64,000 nucleotides of DNA from the human T2T-CHM13v2.0 reference genome, Homo sapiens: NCBI RefSeq assembly GCF_009914755.1, contig NC_060940.1. The stretch is one strand, 5' to 3'. The position numbers and the translations under genes were made by a program. The notes beneath the pieces are model-generated. The model saw nothing but the letters and a program-made list of their open reading frames with translations, searched no databases and was not told where the DNA came from. The number at the start of each line of letters is the position of its first letter. The first letter of the stretch is position 1. Of the stretch, positions 4,914-20,412 are shown in pieces.

Positions 4914-5079
4914 CAGCAGCATGTGGACCATAGCATCTGTGGGCTGTGGGAGGAAGGCCAGTGATGAGAGCCACGCCTCCACCTCGTCTGCCTCCACCGC
5001 TGCTGATGCGATGAGTTCCTTCATGAGGCCCACACAGTGCTCCGTCCCACAGGAAGGCAGGGCATCCAACAGTGGCTGC
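4914..5079 (-). CDS. LOC400499: LLTP-family gene exon 10: [55 protein letters not shown] (gene continues beyond the left edge)
   Basis: gatctcag|G CAG...CTG|gtgagt; 166 nt. LLDALPxCGT is typical of LLTP helical domains, with CxxxxC as in apoB QCGQPQC. Confidence 0.9.
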
Positions 5080-6187
5080 CTGAGATCATCAAGGTGACCC
5101 ACACGTGCTGAGCGCCTGCAAAGCTCATCTCACCGAAGTCACCCGGGGGTAAACTGAGGCTCAGAGAGGTACGGTGCAGACATGCCCACCCTCACACCTT
5201 GGGAGGGGCTGACCCGGGTCTGGGGACCCCGCAGTCTGGCTGAGGCCCGTGCTCTCAGCACAGCAGCACCCAGCCCAGACCCCGGCAGCTCTACCCACCC
5301 AAGAAACACTGGTGTGGGAAAACACAAGTCCGCATGCAGTGCTCTGCTGAAACCCACCCAAGCAAATGTCACCGAGAAGGGGTAAAAATCCCTAGCGGAA
5401 CAGGAACCAGCAATCAGCAAACAGTCCCTAATTTAAACCTCGAATACTCAGCACAACATCAGGACATTTATTTTTTCTTTTTTTGTGAGTTAGGGTCTCA
5501 CTCTGTCACCCAGGCTGCAGTGCAGTGGTGCGATCACACCTCACTGTAGCCGCCACCTCCTGGGCTCAGGTGATCCTCCCACTCAGCCTCCCAAGTAGCT
5601 GGGACCACAAGTGTTCGCTACCAAGTCGAGCTAACTTTTAAATTTTTTGTAGAGATGGGTGCATTGCTATGTTGCCCAGGCTGGTCTCAAACTCCTGAGC
5701 ATAGCCGTAAGCTGACTGAGTTAGTGCCTCAGAGATTCCCCTCTGAGATTGGGAGTCTCTTTACCTGCCTTACTAGCCCCAGATCAGCAAGGTCTGGGTG
5801 GTGGAATGCCGGCCCTGCCCAGCACCCCCCAGCCCAGACTCTCCACGCCCCCAGCAGGAGGGTACCCTAGGTGCATTGGAATGCTAATTCCAGCAAGAGG
5901 GTCCCTGTCTGGGGAAGGGAACAATGGCTGTCTTTATCCGCCAGGCCCTTCAGCTTCTGGTCTCAGGCAGGATAGAGCTTGGACCCCGTGGGAACCTCCA
6001 GGCTCCCCACTTAATCTCCTTCTTGGCGCACATTCTCAGACTGAAGGACAAGTCAGTGTCAAGGGGACGGGATGAGGCATCAGCATCCATCCCTCACTGG
6101 GAACCCAGGACAGCACGAAGACTCCTTTAACCCAGGGATGCCCCCAGCCAGCTCCTAGTCCATCCCCCACCCGGAGAGGGACCTTAC

Positions 6188-6291
6188 CCATTGTCTCGGC
6201 ATTTGAAGGAAGAATATTGCCAGAGTTCCATCAGCTCACCCCCAGAAAGGCCCTGGAGCTGGGACACCAGTGTCAGGAACAAGTCCATGGC
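6188..6291 (-). CDS. LOC400499: LLTP-family gene exon 9: [34 protein letters not shown](G)
   Basis: gaatcccag|GCC...AAT GG|gtaagg; 104 nt. Resembles apoB ANLFNKLVTELRGLS, the start of the alpha-helical domain. Confidence 0.88.
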
Positions 6292-6727
6292 CTGGGATTC
6301 AGAGGGGGCAGCATGAGACACCCAGCAGTGCGGGGGATCCCCGAAGGTCACCTCACCCGTCCCCTGCCTGTAAGCACAACCGTGGGGAAAGTGGGAAGGA
6401 CCTACCACCTTCTCCCAGGATGTGCTGAGACCCAGTGAGATGAAGCTCCAGGTCTGGCTTCTCCCTCACTGCACCCCAAGCCCCTACAAGCATACAAGCT
6501 GGCTCATTTTTCTCTGATTTAGCAGGTATTTATTGAGCACCTACTATGTGCCTTGCATTGCACTCAGGATATGGCAGTGAAAGAACAGGCATAGTGTCTG
6601 AATCTGTGGCATCTAATAAAACCCCAATAAATGTTCACTATGATTGTAATATAATTATTCTAATGAGTCTTAGCATATTTCAAATATTTAGCGAGGTGGC
6701 AATCTTTTCCTACATAATATACATACT

Positions 6728-7328
6728 CTTTTTTTTTTTTTTTGAGATGGAGTCTCACTCTGTTGCCCAGGCTACAGGGCAGTGGCGCAATCTCGGCTCA
6801 CGGCAACCTCCACCTCCTGGGTTCTAGCGATTCTCCCGCCTCAGCCTCCTGAGTAGCTGGGATTACAGGCACCTGTGACCACGTCTGGCTTATTTTTTGT
6901 ATTTTTAGTAGAGAAGAGGTTTCACCATGTTAGCCAGGATGGTCTCGATCTCCTGACCTTGTGATCTGCCCGCCTCGGCCTTCCAAAGTGCTGGGATTAC
7001 AGGCATGAGCCACCACACCTGGACCACCTTTTTTTTTTTTTTTTTTTTTTTTTTAAGAGACAGGATCTCCCTCTGTCTCCCGGGATGGAGTGCTGCAACA
7101 GTCACTTCTCACTGCAGCCTCAACCTCCTGGGCTCCAGCGATCCTCCCACCTCAGCCTCCCGTGTAGCTGGGAATACTGGTGTGCATCACCACGCTCAGC
7201 TAATTTTTTTGTATTTTTCATAGAGATGAGGTTTCACCATGTTGGTCTCAAACTTCTGGGCTCAAGTGATCCTCCCACCTTGGCCTCCCCAAGTGCTGGG
7301 ATGACAGGTGTGAGCCATCGCGCCCACC
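6728..7328 (-). mobile_element. Two tandem Alus
   Basis: Two poly-T-led reverse Alu copies (~6728-7024, ~7030-7328). Confidence 0.9.
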
Positions 7329-8388
7329 CTTTTCCAATATTCCTAATAAAAAAATTGTTTTATACAATTATTAACAGTGATGGCTAATAAAGGGCATTAT
7401 AGGGGGTGCAGAGGGCCCAAAACTCACAAGAAATAAAGGACTCTACTCAGAGAACAGCCCCTGGGTTTAGGAGATGTTTAGTTTGGAAAACCTTCCCTCC
7501 TGGTACCCCTGTAGTCTCAGGCTCACTGCATTGGCCTGAACCCAAAGCCACAGAAACAGCAACAAGGTAGGAGCCGAGCCAAGCCAGGTCCCAGCTTCCT
7601 GCAGGGAAGCCCCCATACTTTCCCCAGGCTTGGCCAGGGCCAGGCCTGAATCCCCCACCCACCCAGAGGTCCTCCGAGGCTGGGACCTGCTTCCCTGACC
7701 CTGGGCCTCCCTGCTGTGTGTGGCTGTGACAGAATCCCTGCACACGCAGCTCGATCTCAGCAAGACGCAGCCTGCAAAACAGGCCCTCACTGGTCACTCG
7801 GCCCACCTGCCAACGTGTCTGCCCACCAGAGTCCCGGCAGCCTTCCCGGAATGTGCCTTCTGTGGTCAGAGCCAGTGGCAACCCTCAGCTCTGTCTTTCC
7901 TTCCTCCGGCAGGACCCACAAGCCAGCCCCTGCTGCAGGCTAACTGCCACCATCGCAGCTGGCCCTGACCACTGGTAGCCTAAAAGACTCTATTGCCCAG
8001 TTTGGGGCGTCTATCCAAAAAATGTCAGTTCCAGGCCTGCTTCCTTCCTTCCTTCCTAATGGGCTCGGCCACATTTCCCTCTGGCTGGTGGCTGCCTTTC
8101 CCCAGCTGCCCTTGGCACCCTGGGTTCGGAACACGTGTGCAGATGGGCACCTGGGGATGGTGCCTGCCCGGGACCACTCCTCCTCCTCTGGGCAAGCCTC
8201 TGGCCACAAGTGTTACCCTGAGAATGCGCCTTTCAGATCCAGGCACGACAGGAGGGATCATTAGTGGCTTATCCTGGTTTCCCTCCACTGGAGGAAGAAG
8301 AAATTCAAAAGGAGAAAAGAGGGCAGATCTAGGCAGGCTACGGATGGAGGCAAAGGGTCCAAGGCTCCTGCCTAGAAATCAAGTCCAG

Positions 8389-18660: not shown

Positions 18661-19583
18661 CTGCGAACCAAGAGGGGAAGGGACAGCTCAGGCCAGGATC
18701 TAGCCACCCACAGGACCCAGCTGGGACCAAGGGGAGGAGGGACGAGGGACACATCAGAGCTGTAGACCCCCCATTCCCCACTCAGCGAGGCTGGGGAGGA
18801 GACCCTGAGGGCTGCATCCCTGCGTCACCCACCCCTGGCTCGCCTGGATTGTGGCAACATCAGCCCAGGCAAAGGCACACCGGAGATGACAAGGATGAGG
18901 GGAAACAAGAAAGTCTAGCAGACAGTGACCCCCCAGGAGAGGAATGACAAAGCGTCAGTATGAAAACATTTCAATCAGCAGAGGCCCACCTCCACCTCTT
19001 AGATGCTGAGACTTTTGATAATAAGTCAACATGAACAATGATCACTTCTCATCCTCCTGCAGATGTTTGGTATTTACAAAGCACTTGCCTCTTCAGGGAG
19101 CTAGAGACAGAGGCGGGGAGGAGGGCTTGGGGAAAAGGACAGAGGGGCAGGCGTGGTGGCTCATTCCCGTAGTTCCAGCACTTGGGGAAGCCAAGGTGGC
19201 CGGAACGCTTGAGCTCAGAAGTTCAAGATCAGCCTGGGCAACATAGCAAGACATTATCTCTACTAAAATTTTTTTTAAAAAACTAACCAGGCATAGTGGT
19301 GTGTGCCTGTAGTCCCAGCTACTTGGGAGGCTGAGGCAGGAGGATCACTTGAGCTCAGGAGTTCAAGATCAGCCTGGACAACACAGCAAGACACCATCTC
19401 TACTAAAAATCCAGAAAAAAAAAATTTAACCAGGAAAGGTGCCTTGTGCCTGTAGTCCCAGCTACTCTCAAGAGGCTGAGACAGGAGGATCGCTTGAGGC
19501 CAGGAGTTGAAGGCTGCACTGAGCCATGATCACACCACTGCACTCCAGCCTGGGTGACAGAGTGGGACTCTGCCTCTAAGGAA

Positions 19584-20027
19584 ATACATACATACGTACG
19601 TACATACATACATACATACGTACGTACATACATACATACATACGTACATACATACATAAAATAAAATAAAATTTCTTGAAGGAAAGAGGAGAAGGGAGGG
19701 GAAGGGGAAGGGAGGAGAGGAGGTAAAGGAAGGAGGACCAAGAAGAGAAGGAATTGGAAGAGAGGAGGTAAAGGAAGGAGGACCAAGAAGAGAAGGAATT
19801 GGAGGAGAGGAAATGAAGAGCTGAGGAGGGAGGAGGAAGGAGGAGGAAAAGGGAGGAGGAGGAGGAAAAGGGAGGAGGAGGAGGAAAAGGGAGGAGGAGG
19901 AGAAAAAGGGAGGAGGAGGAGGAAAAGGGAGGAGGAGGAGGAAGAGGAAGAAGAGGAGAAGGGTCTGGGAGAGCAGCAGTCAGGGGCCCAGCCCAGCCCA
20001 GCCCAGCCCAGCCCAGCCTAGCCCAGC
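19584..20027. repeat. Compound simple repeats: (TACA/TACG)n, GA-rich tract (~19680-19962), (GCCCA)n (19986-20027)
   Basis: Read directly from the sequence. Confidence 0.9.
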
Positions 20028-20033
20028 ACTTAC

Positions 20034-20168
20034 AGCCACTCCAGGCAGGGCCTGAGAATGCAGTGATGAGCGTCCCCTGCGCAGGGAGCACCGTGCCAGG
20101 TCCTTTGTCTTGTGTAGCCAGTCCCCATGGTGCTGGTATGTGGTAGGACATCGGCCCAGGATGTCCAC
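20034..20168 (-). CDS. LOC400499: LLTP-family gene exon 6: [45 protein letters not shown]
   Basis: tctgcccag|GTG...GCT|gtaagt; 135 nt. [12 protein letters not shown]...KTKDLARC resembles MTP EVDISGNCKVTY...KIKALDSC. Confidence 0.93.
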
Positions 20169-20246
20169 CTGGGCAGACAGGGTGGGGGACAGGTCAACCT
20201 TCTGGCCACCTCTACCCCCTACCCCCTTCCCATCTCCTGGCCTCAC

Positions 20247-20412
20247 CTCATCAAAGGTCTTGGGGCTGTGGGCCCCTGGGTGGCCCTGCAGGAGGCTCAG
20301 CACAGCACGCTTCACGTTCAGCACCCAGCGTGGCTCAGTGGGATGGGGACACAGGTGGGCCACACGCCCAGAGTGCAGGATGAAGCGGAGTGGGTTACGG
20401 CCCAGGGTGGCA
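20247..20412 (-). CDS. LOC400499: LLTP-family gene exon 5: [55 protein letters not shown]
   Basis: ccctcctgcag|T GCC...GAG|gtgagg. [17 protein letters not shown] matches the conserved LLTP motif (apoB EPTYILNIKRGIISALL). Confidence 0.93.

What the first reader, a model, noticed from the sequence alone, without database searches (positions are those of the whole stretch)
4914..20412. Cysteine-pair pattern points to the apoB/apolipophorin branch rather than a vitellogenin relic
Seen: Cys pairs GRC...LARC (exon 6), LTC...ASC (exon 7) and CGTEHC (exon 10). Established: apoB has analogous N-terminal disulfides, including the C-x4-C in QCGQPQC and the pair in SQSC...AICKE, while the first pair is shared with MTP. 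Inference: retention of all three pairs suggests selection on a folded secreted protein and APO-subfamily ancestry. A particle-forming or MTP-dependent lipidation role is therefore testable.
Basis: partly seen in the sequence, partly recalled or inferred. Interest (0 to 1): 0.7.

Follow-up and report, generated by a model that had tools for sequence, protein, structure and literature searches.

The report
Human apolipophorin-like lipoprotein gene, N-terminus
These exons encode the start of an unstudied human relative of apolipoprotein B whose conserved cysteine pairs line up with apoB's disulfide bonds, so it looks like an intact lipid-carrier gene and not a dead yolk-protein gene.

Summary
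All three cysteine pairs sit at the stated exons (Cys180/200, 227/241, 370/375). They align with human apoB Cys186/212, 245/261 and 385/390 in tool-made alignments.

- Pair 1 is superfamily-wide: apoB, lipovitellin and MTP all have it.
- Pair 2 runs through nearly the whole apoB/apolipophorin (APO) family and is absent from lipovitellin and MTP.
- Pair 3 is patchy. LOC400499 orthologues, the apoB clade and a Hydra clade have it; amphioxus and most protostome relatives do not.

Family profiles score apoB-100 at 214-225 bits, lipovitellin at 125-130 and MTP or bee vitellogenin at 33-46. Full-length orthologues (3500-4200 aa, shark to marsupial) read Vitellogenin_N, open beta-sheet, PF21013 ('LOC400499 family'), a long amphipathic beta region, then VWD and C8.

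Trees put the family on the apolipophorin side of a strongly supported split, away from apoB plus Hydra. An AU test rejects an apoB-sister position.

Caveats: no vitellogenin or MTP sequence could be put in the tree, DUF1081 is not detected, and function is inferred. The gene is annotated but I found no functional study.

The parts
31214..31280 (-). Coding part of exon 1: start codon and most of a signal-peptide-like N-terminus (residues 1-22)
   Evidence: translation, GT donor; first 30 residues. The signal-peptide reading is inferred from the hydrophobic run; no predictor was run.
27525..27578 (-). Exon 2 with Cys35 and Cys39
   Evidence: for the codons; the Cys39 column is Cys in nearly all APO-type rows. 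The Cys35 column is Cys in 23 of 23 LOC-family, 3 of 3 amphioxus and 96 of 97 other APO rows, but 0 of 1 apoB-clade rows.
26057..26217 (-). Exon 3: first strands of the N-terminal beta barrel; Cys89, which aligns with an apoB Cys
   Evidence: PF01347 profile 4-47, E 0.0029; the Cys89 column is Cys in 27 of 27 LOC-family and 109 of 109 other APO rows, and human APOB has Cys there; published qPCR primers map here.
23005..23075 (-). Exon 4 (23 full codons), beta barrel
   Evidence: One search found no Pfam hit for this exon alone.
20247..20412 (-). Exon 5: the most conserved barrel segment; Cys139
   Evidence: PF01347 profile 82-119, 37.2 bits, E 1.7e-9; apoB-100 is the best solved match, E 0.11. 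Cys139 is Cys in 24 of 27 LOC-family, 3 of 3 amphioxus and 109 of 109 other APO rows, but in 0 of 4 apoB-clade and 0 of 3 Hydra-clade rows.
20169..20246 (-). 78-nt intron between exons 5 and 6. It is in frame and has no stop, so retaining it would add 26 residues.
   Evidence: (database proteins P0001 and P0006 read through it).
20034..20168 (-). Exon 6 with pair 1, Cys180 and Cys200 (GRC...LARC)
   Evidence: the pair aligns with apoB Cys186/212, lipovitellin and MTP cysteines; the human exon aligns both Cys to MTP.. PMC6717300 equates MTP 174-194, lipovitellin 156-182 and apoB 186-212.
18480..18660 (-). Exon 7 with pair 2, Cys227 and Cys241 (LTC...ASC)
   Evidence: the pair aligns with apoB Cys245/261, and lipovitellin and MTP have no Cys there. 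Cys in 26 of 26 LOC-family, 3 of 3 amphioxus, 4 of 4 apoB-clade, 3 of 3 Hydra-clade and 101 of 109 other APO rows.
12830..12969 (-). Exon 8: acidic linker between the barrel and the helical domain; Cys317
   Evidence: Cys317 is Cys in 25 of 27 LOC-family, 3 of 3 amphioxus and 85 of 107 other APO rows, but 0 of 4 apoB-clade rows.
6188..6291 (-). Exon 9: first helices of the alpha-helical domain; Cys356
   Evidence: Cys356 is Cys in 25 of 27 LOC-family, 3 of 3 amphioxus and 88 of 88 other APO rows.
4914..5079 (-). Exon 10 with pair 3, Cys370 and Cys375 (C-x4-C, CGTEHC), in the helical domain
   Evidence: PF01347 profile 361-412, E 3.7e-4; the pair aligns with apoB Cys385/390, and lipovitellin, bee vitellogenin and MTP have no Cys there. 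Cys in 26 of 27 LOC-family, 4 of 4 apoB-clade, 3 of 3 Hydra-clade, 0 of 3 amphioxus and 10 of 108 other APO rows.

Best explanation
The window holds exons 1-10 of LOC400499. [quoted passage not shown] Shown here:
- The three cysteine pairs are homologous, column for column, to three N-terminal cysteine pairs of human apoB.
- They are conserved from sharks to humans while the surrounding sequence diverges.

Within the APO branch the gene is the vertebrate representative of the apolipophorin-type lineage. Its closest named relatives are amphioxus and protostome 'apolipophorins'. It is not a recent copy of apoB.

Full-length orthologues continue as follows: an open beta-sheet lipid cavity; a roughly 530-residue PF21013 region predicted to be a continuous antiparallel beta meander; about 2000 more residues with amphipathic-beta periodicity; an amphipathic-helix stretch; and a C-terminal VWD plus C8 module.

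Inferred mechanism: the chain enters the ER, the six N-terminal disulfides lock the barrel and helical domains, and lipid is loaded into the cavity, perhaps with MTP's help. The long amphipathic beta region then wraps or carries lipid. The product would be a secreted lipoprotein or lipid-shuttle particle.
For: Identity and homology:
- 4 of 8 exon translations hit PF01347 collinearly.
- The goat orthologue's N-terminus hits apoB-100 best among solved structures (E 4e-10), ahead of MTP (1.6e-6), bee vitellogenin (0.016) and lipovitellin (0.063).
- Two family profiles give apoB 214 and 225 bits, lipovitellin 130 and 125, MTP 45 and 42, and bee vitellogenin 46 and 33.
- Cysteine columns are tabulated.

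Architecture:
- PF21013 is found in 9 of 12 orthologue fragments, and DUF1081 in 0 of 12.
- Three full-length vertebrate members have PF01347, PF09172, PF21013 and VWD; two of the three also have C8.
- Amphioxus P0038 has both DUF1081 and PF21013, plus VWD and C8. One amphioxus protein (P0169) is named 'CTD-3088G3.8'; that this is the human gene's clone-based name is my recollection.
- All 150 best of 2210 database representatives score 250 bits or more. Those I sampled are APO-type with DUF1081 and/or VWD.

Trees:
- A careful LG+G4 tree (32 rows x 990 columns) splits {Hydra clade + apoB clade} from {LOC family, amphioxus, protostome apolipophorin-likes} at 100/100.
- The quick LG+C20 tree shows the same split at SH-aLRT 100.
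- Holding the LOC family and apoB clade together is rejected (delta lnL 60, p-AU 6e-6).
- Holding the LOC family and amphioxus together is not rejected (p-AU 0.24).

The human gene looks whole:
- 9 PF21013 exons without stops.
- 55 collinear HSPs to a marsupial orthologue reaching its last residues.
- Weak VWD hits in two terminal exons.

Lipid-scaffold features:
- Amphipathic-beta windows run at 2-4 times the shuffle expectation from about residue 800 to 3200. An amphipathic-helix stretch follows, then VWD, as in a putative insect apoLp-II/I.
- The AF2 model of dog residues 971-1881 is 57 consecutive beta strands (pLDDT 66). Its three best Foldseek hits are apoB-100 chains (E 1.7e-9 to 4e-8), and the next hit is at 1.6e-5.
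- The N-terminal 982-aa model has a barrel, a helical domain and beta sheets, and its top 11 Foldseek hits are all LLTPs.

Expression: a paper reports qPCR of this gene in human liver, and its primers map to exon 3.
Against: - DUF1081, the Pfam domain typical of apoB and apolipophorins, is not detected in any vertebrate family member scanned. In the human genome it hits only APOB exons.
- The fold search of the N-terminal model ranks lipovitellin first (E 3.9e-30, TMq 0.52) and apoB second (1.8e-27, TMq 0.27). The fold therefore does not separate APO from vitellogenin.
- VIA-align on the beta-meander model ranks bacterial outer-membrane barrels (Z about 14, rmsd 17-26 A) above an apoB chain (Z 11.0, rank 46). 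The longest apoB chains were not aligned. The belt resemblance is therefore generic.
- The trees contain no vitellogenin or MTP outgroup. The apoB row is a 951-residue approximation pieced from genomic exon hits. The apoB and Hydra rows are long branches. The careful C20 run did not finish.
- Human and orangutan differ at 16 of 349 residues (95.4% identity). From recall that is high for this species pair and may mean weak constraint in hominids.
- About 600-900 central residues of marsupial and sauropsid orthologues find no match in the human gene.
- The furin motif at the apoLp-II/I cleavage loop is absent from the 8 LOC-family rows displayed.
- No tool gave model coordinates, so the disulfide pairings are inferred from homology, not measured.
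- The qPCR amplicon lies inside one exon, so genomic DNA carry-over is not excluded.
Confidence: 0.82

Rival explanations
1. The gene is a vertebrate-specific duplicate (sister) of apoB, for example a whole-genome-duplication partner, and not an apolipophorin-type gene.
For: apoB-100 is the best solved-structure match by sequence. The C-x4-C pair 3 is shared with the apoB clade and is absent from amphioxus and from 98 of 108 other APO rows. Many intron positions coincide approximately with APOB's.
Against: The AU test rejects the LOC family plus apoB clade as one clade (p 6e-6). Both models put apoB with a Hydra clade across a 100%-supported split. Cys139, Cys35 and Cys317 are shared with apolipophorin-type rows and absent from the apoB clade. 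The family keeps VWD and C8, which human apoB lacks from recall. No apolipophorin structure has been solved, so 'best solved match' is biased toward apoB.
Confidence: 0.07
2. The gene is a relic or derivative of a vitellogenin gene.
For: NCBI names several fragments 'vitellogenin-like' or 'vitellogenin'. The N-terminal model's best Foldseek hit is lipovitellin. The family keeps a C-x5-C in the helical domain that aligns with lipovitellin Cys443-449, which apoB lacks.
Against: Profile scores for lipovitellin are 85-100 bits below apoB's. Lipovitellin has no Cys at pairs 2 and 3. No PF09175 hit appeared in any Pfam scan. The proteins are 3500-4200 aa with PF21013 and a roughly 2400-residue amphipathic-beta region. 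A C8 module follows VWD, whereas vitellogenins lack C8 (PMC12214520 passage). All 150 nearest representatives are 250 bits or more, and those sampled are APO-type. The 'vitellogenin' names come from the shared PF01347 domain.
Confidence: 0.01
3. The gene is an MTP-like ER-resident lipid transfer protein.
For: Pair 1 and the exon 6 sequence match MTP best at the single-exon level.
Against: MTP scores only 42-45 bits against the family profiles. MTP lacks pairs 2 and 3. No scan found PF19444. The family is four times MTP's length and ends in VWD and C8.
Confidence: 0.01
4. The family is a working APO-type protein in other vertebrates, but the human copy is under relaxed constraint or on its way to loss. 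On this reading the retained cysteines reflect history more than present function.
For: 95.4% identity to orangutan over 349 aa. Long placental branches and an odd amino-acid make-up in the trees. A central region of 600-900 residues is missing relative to marsupial and sauropsid orthologues. The gene has only a placeholder name and no functional paper.
Against: All 10 window exons are open with canonical splice sites, and 12 of 12 cysteines are kept. PF21013 and terminal exons are open. The hub's table lists a RefSeq NM_ record with 67 coding exons. A liver qPCR signal and a proteomics listing exist. I did not verify peptide evidence.
Confidence: 0.15
5. The protein is secreted but its main role is not bulk lipid transport. 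It might instead act in clotting, pattern recognition or matrix building through disulfide-linked multimers of its VWD-C8 end, as some invertebrate LLTPs and mucins do.
For: VWD and C8 are present. In mucins and VWF these modules mediate disulfide-linked assembly (PMC12214520 passage). DUF1081 and the furin site are lost.
Against: The lipid-transfer module is complete and conserved. The long amphipathic-beta region is the hallmark of lipid-associating APO proteins. VWD and C8 are also present in ordinary apolipophorin-type proteins.
Confidence: 0.12

Closest known systems
Human apolipoprotein B-100 (PDB 9bd1, 9e9r, 9bde)
   Same: It is the best solved-structure match by sequence (214-225 bits over profile positions 37-1038 against apoB 41-1070). 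Cys186/212, 245/261 and 385/390 align with the three pairs, and two more apoB cysteine pairs align nearby. The lipid-transfer module is shared. The predicted long beta meander finds apoB chains as its best Foldseek hits.
   Different: The two lie on different sides of a 100%-supported split, and a sister relation is rejected. The family has no detectable DUF1081. It has VWD and C8 and the PF21013 region. It has Cys35/139 and Cys317/356 and lacks apoB's second N-terminal pair. It has 67 small exons, and no open frame of 200 aa or more lies in the interval I checked, C16:11454123-11460123.
Amphioxus 'apolipophorins-like' protein (P0038; B. lanceolatum P0169, named CTD-3088G3.8)
   Same: It shows the same domain order, including a weak but significant PF21013 match (118 bits), VWD and C8. 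It keeps 10 of 12 human cysteines. A clade with the vertebrate family is not rejected.
   Different: It keeps DUF1081 and lacks the C-x4-C pair 3. The trees do not positively join it to the vertebrate family; the base of that side is a polytomy.
Protostome apolipophorin-type proteins (mollusc, annelid, priapulid, crustacean, insect; 3800-6300 aa)
   Same: They are on the same side of the main split. They share Cys35, 139, 317 and 356 and pairs 1 and 2. They have the same layout: lipid-transfer module, long amphipathic beta region, amphipathic helices, then VWD.
   Different: Most carry DUF1081 and lack pair 3. A clade of roughly 3300-3400-aa proteins, which I take from recall to be canonical insect apoLp-II/I, lacks pair 2 and has an R-x-K-R site that the LOC-family rows lack. 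PF21013 is weak or absent in them.
Vitellogenin / lipovitellin (PDB 1lsh, 9enr)
   Same: The lipid-transfer module fold is shared, and 1lsh is the best Foldseek hit. Pair 1 and a helical-domain C-x5-C are shared. A VWD domain is present.
   Different: Sequence scores are much lower. Pairs 2 and 3 are absent. There is no PF09175 in the LOC family, and no C8 in vitellogenins. Vitellogenins are half the length or less and have no long amphipathic-beta region.
Microsomal triglyceride transfer protein large subunit (PDB 6i7s)
   Same: Barrel and helical domains are shared. Pair 1 corresponds to MTP Cys174-194.
   Different: It scores 42-45 bits only, lacks pairs 2 and 3, is about 890 aa, and has no beta belt, VWD or C8.

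Membership tests
Large lipid transfer protein superfamily | N-terminal lipid-transfer module (Pfam PF01347 Vitellogenin_N followed by the PF09172 open beta-sheet) | tested here: met
   Human exons 3, 5, 6 and 10 hit PF01347 collinearly. Orthologues hit PF01347 at E 1e-28 to 1e-90 and PF09172. The AF2 model shows barrel, helices and sheets, and its top 11 Foldseek hits are all LLTPs.
APO family (apoB / apolipophorin) | Closer in sequence to apoB and apolipophorins than to vitellogenins or MTP | tested here: met
   (apoB 214-225 bits, lipovitellin 125-130, MTP 42-45); the nearest database relatives are apolipophorin-type.
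APO family (apoB / apolipophorin) | DUF1081 (PF06448) after the open beta-sheet. It is characteristic but not universal: several clearly APO-type rows such as P0055, P0070, P0147 and P0163 also lack a hit. | tested here: not met
   0 of 12 orthologue fragments and 0 of 3 full-length vertebrate members have it. In the human genome only 3 APOB exons hit at E<=1. It is present in the amphioxus relative.
APO family (apoB / apolipophorin) | Long lipid-associating amphipathic beta region after the transfer module | tested here: met
   Hydrophobic-moment scan. AF2 model with 57 consecutive strands. Foldseek's top 3 hits are apoB-100. VIA-align finds the resemblance generic. All of this is predictive, not experimental.
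APO family (apoB / apolipophorin) | Cysteine pair equivalent to apoB Cys245/261 (pair 2), absent from lipovitellin and MTP | tested here: met
   (137 of 145 non-gap rows across all groups). That this pair forms a disulfide in apoB is recalled from Yang et al. 1990. It fits the count of four disulfides in apoB residues 28-320 given in PMC9569473.
Apolipophorin-type lineage (as against the apoB lineage) | Groups with amphioxus and protostome apolipophorins in a tree; C-terminal VWD (+C8) | tested here: met
   (the trees are unrooted and have no vitellogenin or MTP outgroup). VWD and C8. Weak VWD hits in human exons.
Insect apoLp-II/I in the narrow sense | Furin-type R-x-[KR]-R cleavage site in the loop near residue 720 | tested here: not met
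   the motif is in 23 of 147 rows, including the putative insect clade, Penaeus, Artemia and Hydra, but in none of the 8 LOC-family rows displayed. I did not tabulate all 27 LOC-family rows.
Vitellogenin | PF09175 beta-sheet shell domain, a serine-rich phosvitin region, and VWD without C8 | tested here: not met
   No PF09175 hit. C8 follows VWD, whereas vitellogenins lack C8 (PMC12214520). I did not specifically look for a phosvitin region.
MTP large subunit | About 890 aa with the PF19444 lipid-binding domain and no long C-terminal extension | tested here: not met
   No PF19444 hit. Family members are 3500-4200 aa.
Pfam PF21013 'LOC400499 family' | Match to the 527-position profile above 27 bits | tested here: met
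   Human genome: 9 collinear exon matches on chr16 covering profile positions 1-507, with no stops. These exons lie outside the window.

The most novel reading that the evidence does not exclude
Jawed vertebrates, humans included, still carry the direct counterpart of invertebrate apolipophorin. It would be a second giant lipoprotein scaffold with a VWD-C8 tail, whose lineage separated from the apoB lineage before protostomes and deuterostomes diverged. ApoB would then not be 'the' vertebrate apolipophorin. The chr16 gene could build an unrecognised lipoprotein or lipid-transfer particle, possibly in liver, and possibly relevant to plasma lipids.
Probability: 0.3. Interest if true: 0.85.

Novelty: new member of a known kind. 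Interest (0 to 1): 0.6.

Why it matters
From recall, textbook accounts give humans two large lipid transfer proteins, apoB and MTP, and treat insect apolipophorin as apoB's counterpart; the preprint passage uses that equivalence.

This gene appears to be a third, intact member. It is of the apolipophorin type, with everything needed on paper to bind lipid: a transfer module locked by conserved disulfides, a long amphipathic beta region, and a secretion signal. Yet it has only a placeholder name.

If it makes a particle, it is a new object for lipoprotein biology and for reading genetic signals at 16p13.13. One small study lists an intronic SNP at suggestive significance for HDL-C (P 3.9e-6, n 451). 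That is not genome-wide significant.

Even if the human copy turns out to be idle, the family redraws the history of apoB. The nearest invertebrate-like relatives of apoB in my set still carry VWD and C8, which implies that apoB lost them.

Tried and rejected
- **Single human exons against solved structures.** They lacked power: exon 10 gave chance hits only, exon 7 gave none, and exon 6 hit MTP only.
- **First representatives job.** It failed because the profile was too long. I repeated it with short sequences.
- **Vitellogenin and MTP sequences.** The word-index homology search did not reach apoB, vitellogenin or MTP. The representatives search lists only its best 150, all closer than apoB. 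No vitellogenin or MTP sequence could therefore enter a tree.
- **Trees that did not finish.** The 59-row mixture and careful trees did not finish, nor did the careful C20 tree of 32 rows. The quick versions stand.
- **Protein atlas.** One call errored on length. The other returned only generic LLTP clusters and no taxonomy for the basal family member P0035. The taxa of P0028, P0030, P0035, P0059, P0131, P0157 and P0159 remain unknown.
- **Yang et al. 1990 (PMC54357).** The paper is not held, so the apoB disulfide connectivity for pairs 2 and 3 is recalled.
- **Fold comparison of the N-terminal model.** It did not separate APO from vitellogenin. VIA-align did not single out apoB for the beta meander.
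- **Giant exon.** I looked for a giant exon that could hold the central region missing from the human gene and found none.
- **Complex prediction.** I did not use it, because no MTP sequence was available.

Full report
**1. What is in the window**

On the minus strand, the ten annotated coding exons of LOC400499 join into 1245 nt, or 415 codons, with no stop. All 10 donors are GT and all 9 internal acceptors are AG. The product starts with a signal-peptide-like hydrophobic run.

It has 12 cysteines, at residues 35, 39, 89, 139, 180, 200, 227, 241, 317, 356, 370 and 375.
- Cys180 and Cys200 in exon 6.
- Cys227 and Cys241 in exon 7.
- Cys370 and Cys375 (C-x4-C) in exon 10.

All external searches therefore used single-exon references or orthologue proteins returned by the database tools.

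**2. The domain**

Four of 8 exon translations hit Pfam PF01347 (Vitellogenin_N), in collinear order:
- exon 3, profile 4-47
- exon 5, profile 82-119, 37 bits, above the cut-off
- exon 6, profile 138-172
- exon 10, profile 361-412

Exons 4, 7 and 8 gave nothing, and exon 9 gave a chance hit.

A search with exon 5 returned orthologue fragments from orangutan, cat and goat (6 proteins among 19 candidates). The 430-aa goat fragment keeps all 12 cysteines.

**3. Do the cysteines align with apoB's?**

Yes, and the alignments were made by the tools, not by me. phmmer of the goat fragment against all solved chains put apoB-100 first (E 4.1e-10, query 22-400 against apoB 51-450). MTP followed at 1.6e-6, bee vitellogenin at 0.016 and lamprey lipovitellin at 0.063. 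The remaining 4 of the 9 listed sequences look like chance.

Counting along the printed apoB row, the three pairs face apoB Cys186/212, Cys245/261 and Cys385/390 in precursor numbering. From recall, subtracting 27 gives the classical numbers 159/185, 218/234 and 358/363.

A profile of eight orthologues gave the same columns. It also showed the following:
- Pair 1 faces cysteines in lipovitellin and in MTP.
- Pairs 2 and 3 face non-cysteines in lipovitellin and MTP.
- Pair 3 faces non-cysteines in bee vitellogenin. The bee alignment does not cover pairs 1 and 2.

The literature passages I read agree:
- MTP Cys174-194 equals lipovitellin 156-182 and apoB 186-212 (PMC6717300).
- Only one of the six disulfides of apoB-17 is conserved in lipovitellin (PMC1940002).
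- ApoB has four disulfides in residues 28-320 and two in residues 321-616 (PMC9569473).

That apoB 245-261 and 385-390 are actually bonded to each other is recalled from Yang et al. 1990, which is not held.

Against chance: 5 co-aligned cysteines out of 9 and 8 in 312 columns gives P = 2.9e-7.

Single human exons alone could not show any of this.

**4. How far each pair reaches**

I aligned 147 N-terminal segments: 145 stored relatives, the human row, and an APOB row pieced inside a script from 19 collinear genomic exon hits. The counts below are Cys over non-gap rows.

| Cysteine(s) | LOC family | Amphioxus | ApoB clade | Hydra clade | Other APO rows |
|---|---|---|---|---|---|
| Pair 1 (180/200) | 25/25 | 3/3 | 4/4 | 3/3 | 108/109 and 107/109 |
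| Pair 2 (227/241) | 26/26 | 3/3 | 4/4 | 3/3 | 101/109 |
| Pair 3 (370/375) | 26/27 | 0/3 | 4/4 | 3/3 | 10/108 |
| Cys139 | 24/27 | 3/3 | 0/4 | 0/3 | 109/109 |

- The pair 2 exceptions include a clade of roughly 3300-3400-aa proteins that I take, from recall of lengths and the furin site, to be canonical insect apoLp-II/I.
- Cys35 and Cys317 behave like Cys139.

So pair 1 says only 'LLTP' and pair 2 says 'APO family'. Pair 3 is an old APO feature that most protostome proteins and amphioxus lost. The human protein also carries cysteines typical of apolipophorin-type proteins that apoB lacks.

**5. The whole protein**

Longer relatives (15 among 8000 candidates) are named 'apolipophorins-like', 'vitellogenin-like' or 'uncharacterized' by NCBI. 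Pfam gives them PF01347, PF09172 and PF21013, a family actually named 'LOC400499'. PF21013 is found in 9 of 12 proteins scanned, and DUF1081 in 0 of 12.

A full HMMER search of 1.84 billion representatives found 2210 relatives at E <= 1e-3, 1084 at <= 1e-10 and 376 at <= 1e-30. The best 150 all score 250 bits or more.

Full-length vertebrate members are 3524, 3879 and 3804 aa. They end in VWD, and two of the three add C8. None has DUF1081.

A 3698-aa amphioxus protein has DUF1081, a weak PF21013 match (118 bits), VWD and C8. A sister sequence from B. lanceolatum is annotated 'CTD-3088G3.8', which from recall is the clone-based name of the human gene.

One search names sharks, frogs, alligator, lizard and a marsupial for family members of 2849-4171 aa (most 3800-4200). 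It names molluscs, an annelid, a priapulid, crustaceans, insects and Hydra for 3500-6200-aa relatives with DUF1081 and/or VWD.

In the human genome:
- PF21013 hits nine collinear chr16 exons without stops.
- DUF1081 hits only APOB.
- A marsupial orthologue aligns in 55 collinear pieces covering 3109 of its 4171 residues, up to its last residue.
- Seven stop codons lie inside 5 of those pieces. The first is an overrun past a RefSeq exon end. I did not resolve the others.
- Residues 2077-2970 of the marsupial protein find nothing in the human gene, and no open frame of 200 aa or more lies in the 6-kb interval concerned.
- Two terminal human exons give weak VWD hits (E 0.0026 and 0.033).

**6. 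Trees**

The 147-row FastTree and a 59-row quick tree put the human row with dog and narwhal inside a fully supported vertebrate clade.

For careful analysis I cut the set to 32 of the 147 rows, chosen after seeing the FastTree, and left the partial human row out.
- LG+G4 with 1000 ultrafast bootstraps (990 columns) gave a 100/100 split. Three Hydra-clade rows and four apoB-clade rows stand against the other 25: the LOC family, amphioxus and protostome apolipophorin-likes. The LOC family itself is supported at 100/100.
- The quick LG+C20+F+G4 tree has the same split at SH-aLRT 100.
- Forcing the LOC family and apoB clade together costs 60 log-likelihood units (p-AU 6e-6).
- Forcing the LOC family and amphioxus together is not rejected (p-AU 0.24).

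The base of the apolipophorin side is an unresolved polytomy.

Limits:
- The trees are unrooted and have no vitellogenin or MTP outgroup.
- The apoB and Hydra branches are long.
- The APOB row is an approximation.
- Three longer runs did not finish (103/105).

The three unnamed partners of human APOB (33% identity) carry VWD and C8 in two of three cases. This suggests apoB lost that tail.

**7. Structure and lipid-binding features**

The AF2 model of the seal N-terminal 982 aa has a mean pLDDT of 71. It shows a beta barrel (58-279), a helical domain (315-611) and beta sheets (630-976). Its top 11 Foldseek hits are all LLTPs, led by lipovitellin (E 3.9e-30, TMq 0.52), then apoB (1.8e-27, TMq 0.27), bee vitellogenin and MTP. 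The fold confirms the superfamily but not the branch.

The model of dog residues 971-1881 covers PF21013 and beyond, with a pLDDT of 66. It is 57 consecutive strands with almost no helix. Foldseek's three best hits are apoB-100 chains (E 1.7e-9, 1.9e-9, 4e-8; TMq 0.21-0.25), and the next hit is at 1.6e-5. VIA-align instead ranks outer-membrane barrels first (Z about 14) and an apoB chain at Z 11.0, rank 46, with the longest apoB chains not aligned. I read this as 'a long antiparallel meander like apoB's belt'. It is not proof of homology in that region.

A hydrophobic-moment scan shows amphipathic-beta windows at 2-4 times the shuffle expectation from about residue 800 to 3200. An amphipathic-helix stretch follows, before VWD. 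The putative insect apoLp-II/I has the same layout.

The furin-type site of that insect clade is absent from the 8 LOC-family rows displayed.

**8. Is it under selection?**

Cysteine retention is striking: 12 of 12 in shark at 38% overall identity. Against that, human and orangutan differ at 16 of 349 residues. Placental branches are long and compositionally odd. Only codon-level analysis can settle whether the human copy is constrained, and I had no orthologue DNA.

**9. Literature**

- 'LOC400499' occurs in 12 papers. I read passages in five. They show a liver qPCR and prognostic signature that states 'the gene remains unidentified', a suggestive intronic HDL-C SNP, a down-regulated gene in an iPSC-hepatocyte study, a proteomics table entry, and a table listing APOB and LOC400499 as human counterparts of Drosophila apoLpp. 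The other seven I saw only as listings.
- 'CTD-3088G3.8' occurs in 5 papers, 4 of them listed, none on function by title.
- 'apolipophorins-like' occurs in 13 papers, all on invertebrates by title.
- Two broader searches found no description of a vertebrate apolipophorin-type gene.
- A preprint on sea-anemone lipoproteins treats ApoB and apolipophorins as one orthologue group.

The qPCR primers map inside exon 3 and give the stated 65-bp product.

**10. Verdict**

It can be sharpened: LOC400499 is an apparently intact, apolipophorin-type member of the APO family. It is not a vitellogenin relic, not MTP-like, and not a close copy of apoB. Databases already imply this through names and a Pfam family, so it is a new, unstudied member of a known kind. 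Its role as a lipid carrier is inferred and directly testable.

Noticed in passing
window 20169-20246 (minus strand): The intron between exons 5 and 6 is only 78 nt, in frame and free of stops. Database proteins P0001 (identical to the window) and P0006 (cat-like) read straight through it, adding 26 residues inside the beta barrel.
   Followed up: partly
outside the window, G000:C16:11530729-11530956 (next exon downstream): The family has a C-x5-C in the helical domain that aligns with lipovitellin Cys443-449 and MTP Cys440-445. The MTP paper says apoB lacks this disulfide. The family therefore keeps an ancestral pair that apoB lost.
   Followed up: partly
outside the window, G000:C16:11454123-11460123: About 900 residues (2077-2970) of the marsupial orthologue, and about 570 of a sauropsid-like one, have no match in the human gene. 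No open frame of 200 aa or more lies in this interval. The human protein is probably several hundred residues shorter in its centre.
   Followed up: partly
stored proteins P0131, P0157, P0159 (unnamed sources): The closest stored relatives of human APOB (33% identity) carry VWD and C8 in two of three cases, and one adds VWA. This implies that vertebrate apoB lost a C-terminal VWD-C8 module.
   Followed up: partly
stored proteins P0118, P0136, P0147, P0149, P0163, P0166: A clade of roughly 3300-3400-aa proteins with an R-x-K-R site near residue 720, probably canonical insect apoLp-II/I, lacks cysteine pair 2. Nearly all other APO-type proteins keep it.
   Followed up: no
window 26114-26178: The only published assay of this gene that I found uses a 65-bp qPCR amplicon lying wholly inside exon 3, so it cannot tell cDNA from genomic DNA.
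   Followed up: yes
outside the window, G000:C16:11521980-11523396 and 11499597-11500805: Long open frames (403-471 codons) rich in P, S, H, I or in H, T, Y sit in introns of the gene on the coding strand. They look like translated tandem repeats, not exons.
   Followed up: no
window exon boundaries against APOB (G000:C2:21049777-21075688): In shared profile coordinates, roughly half of the intron positions in the first 1000 codons of LOC400499 fall within a few residues of APOB intron positions. This is approximate, because the exon ends were taken from HMM alignment ends.
   Followed up: partly
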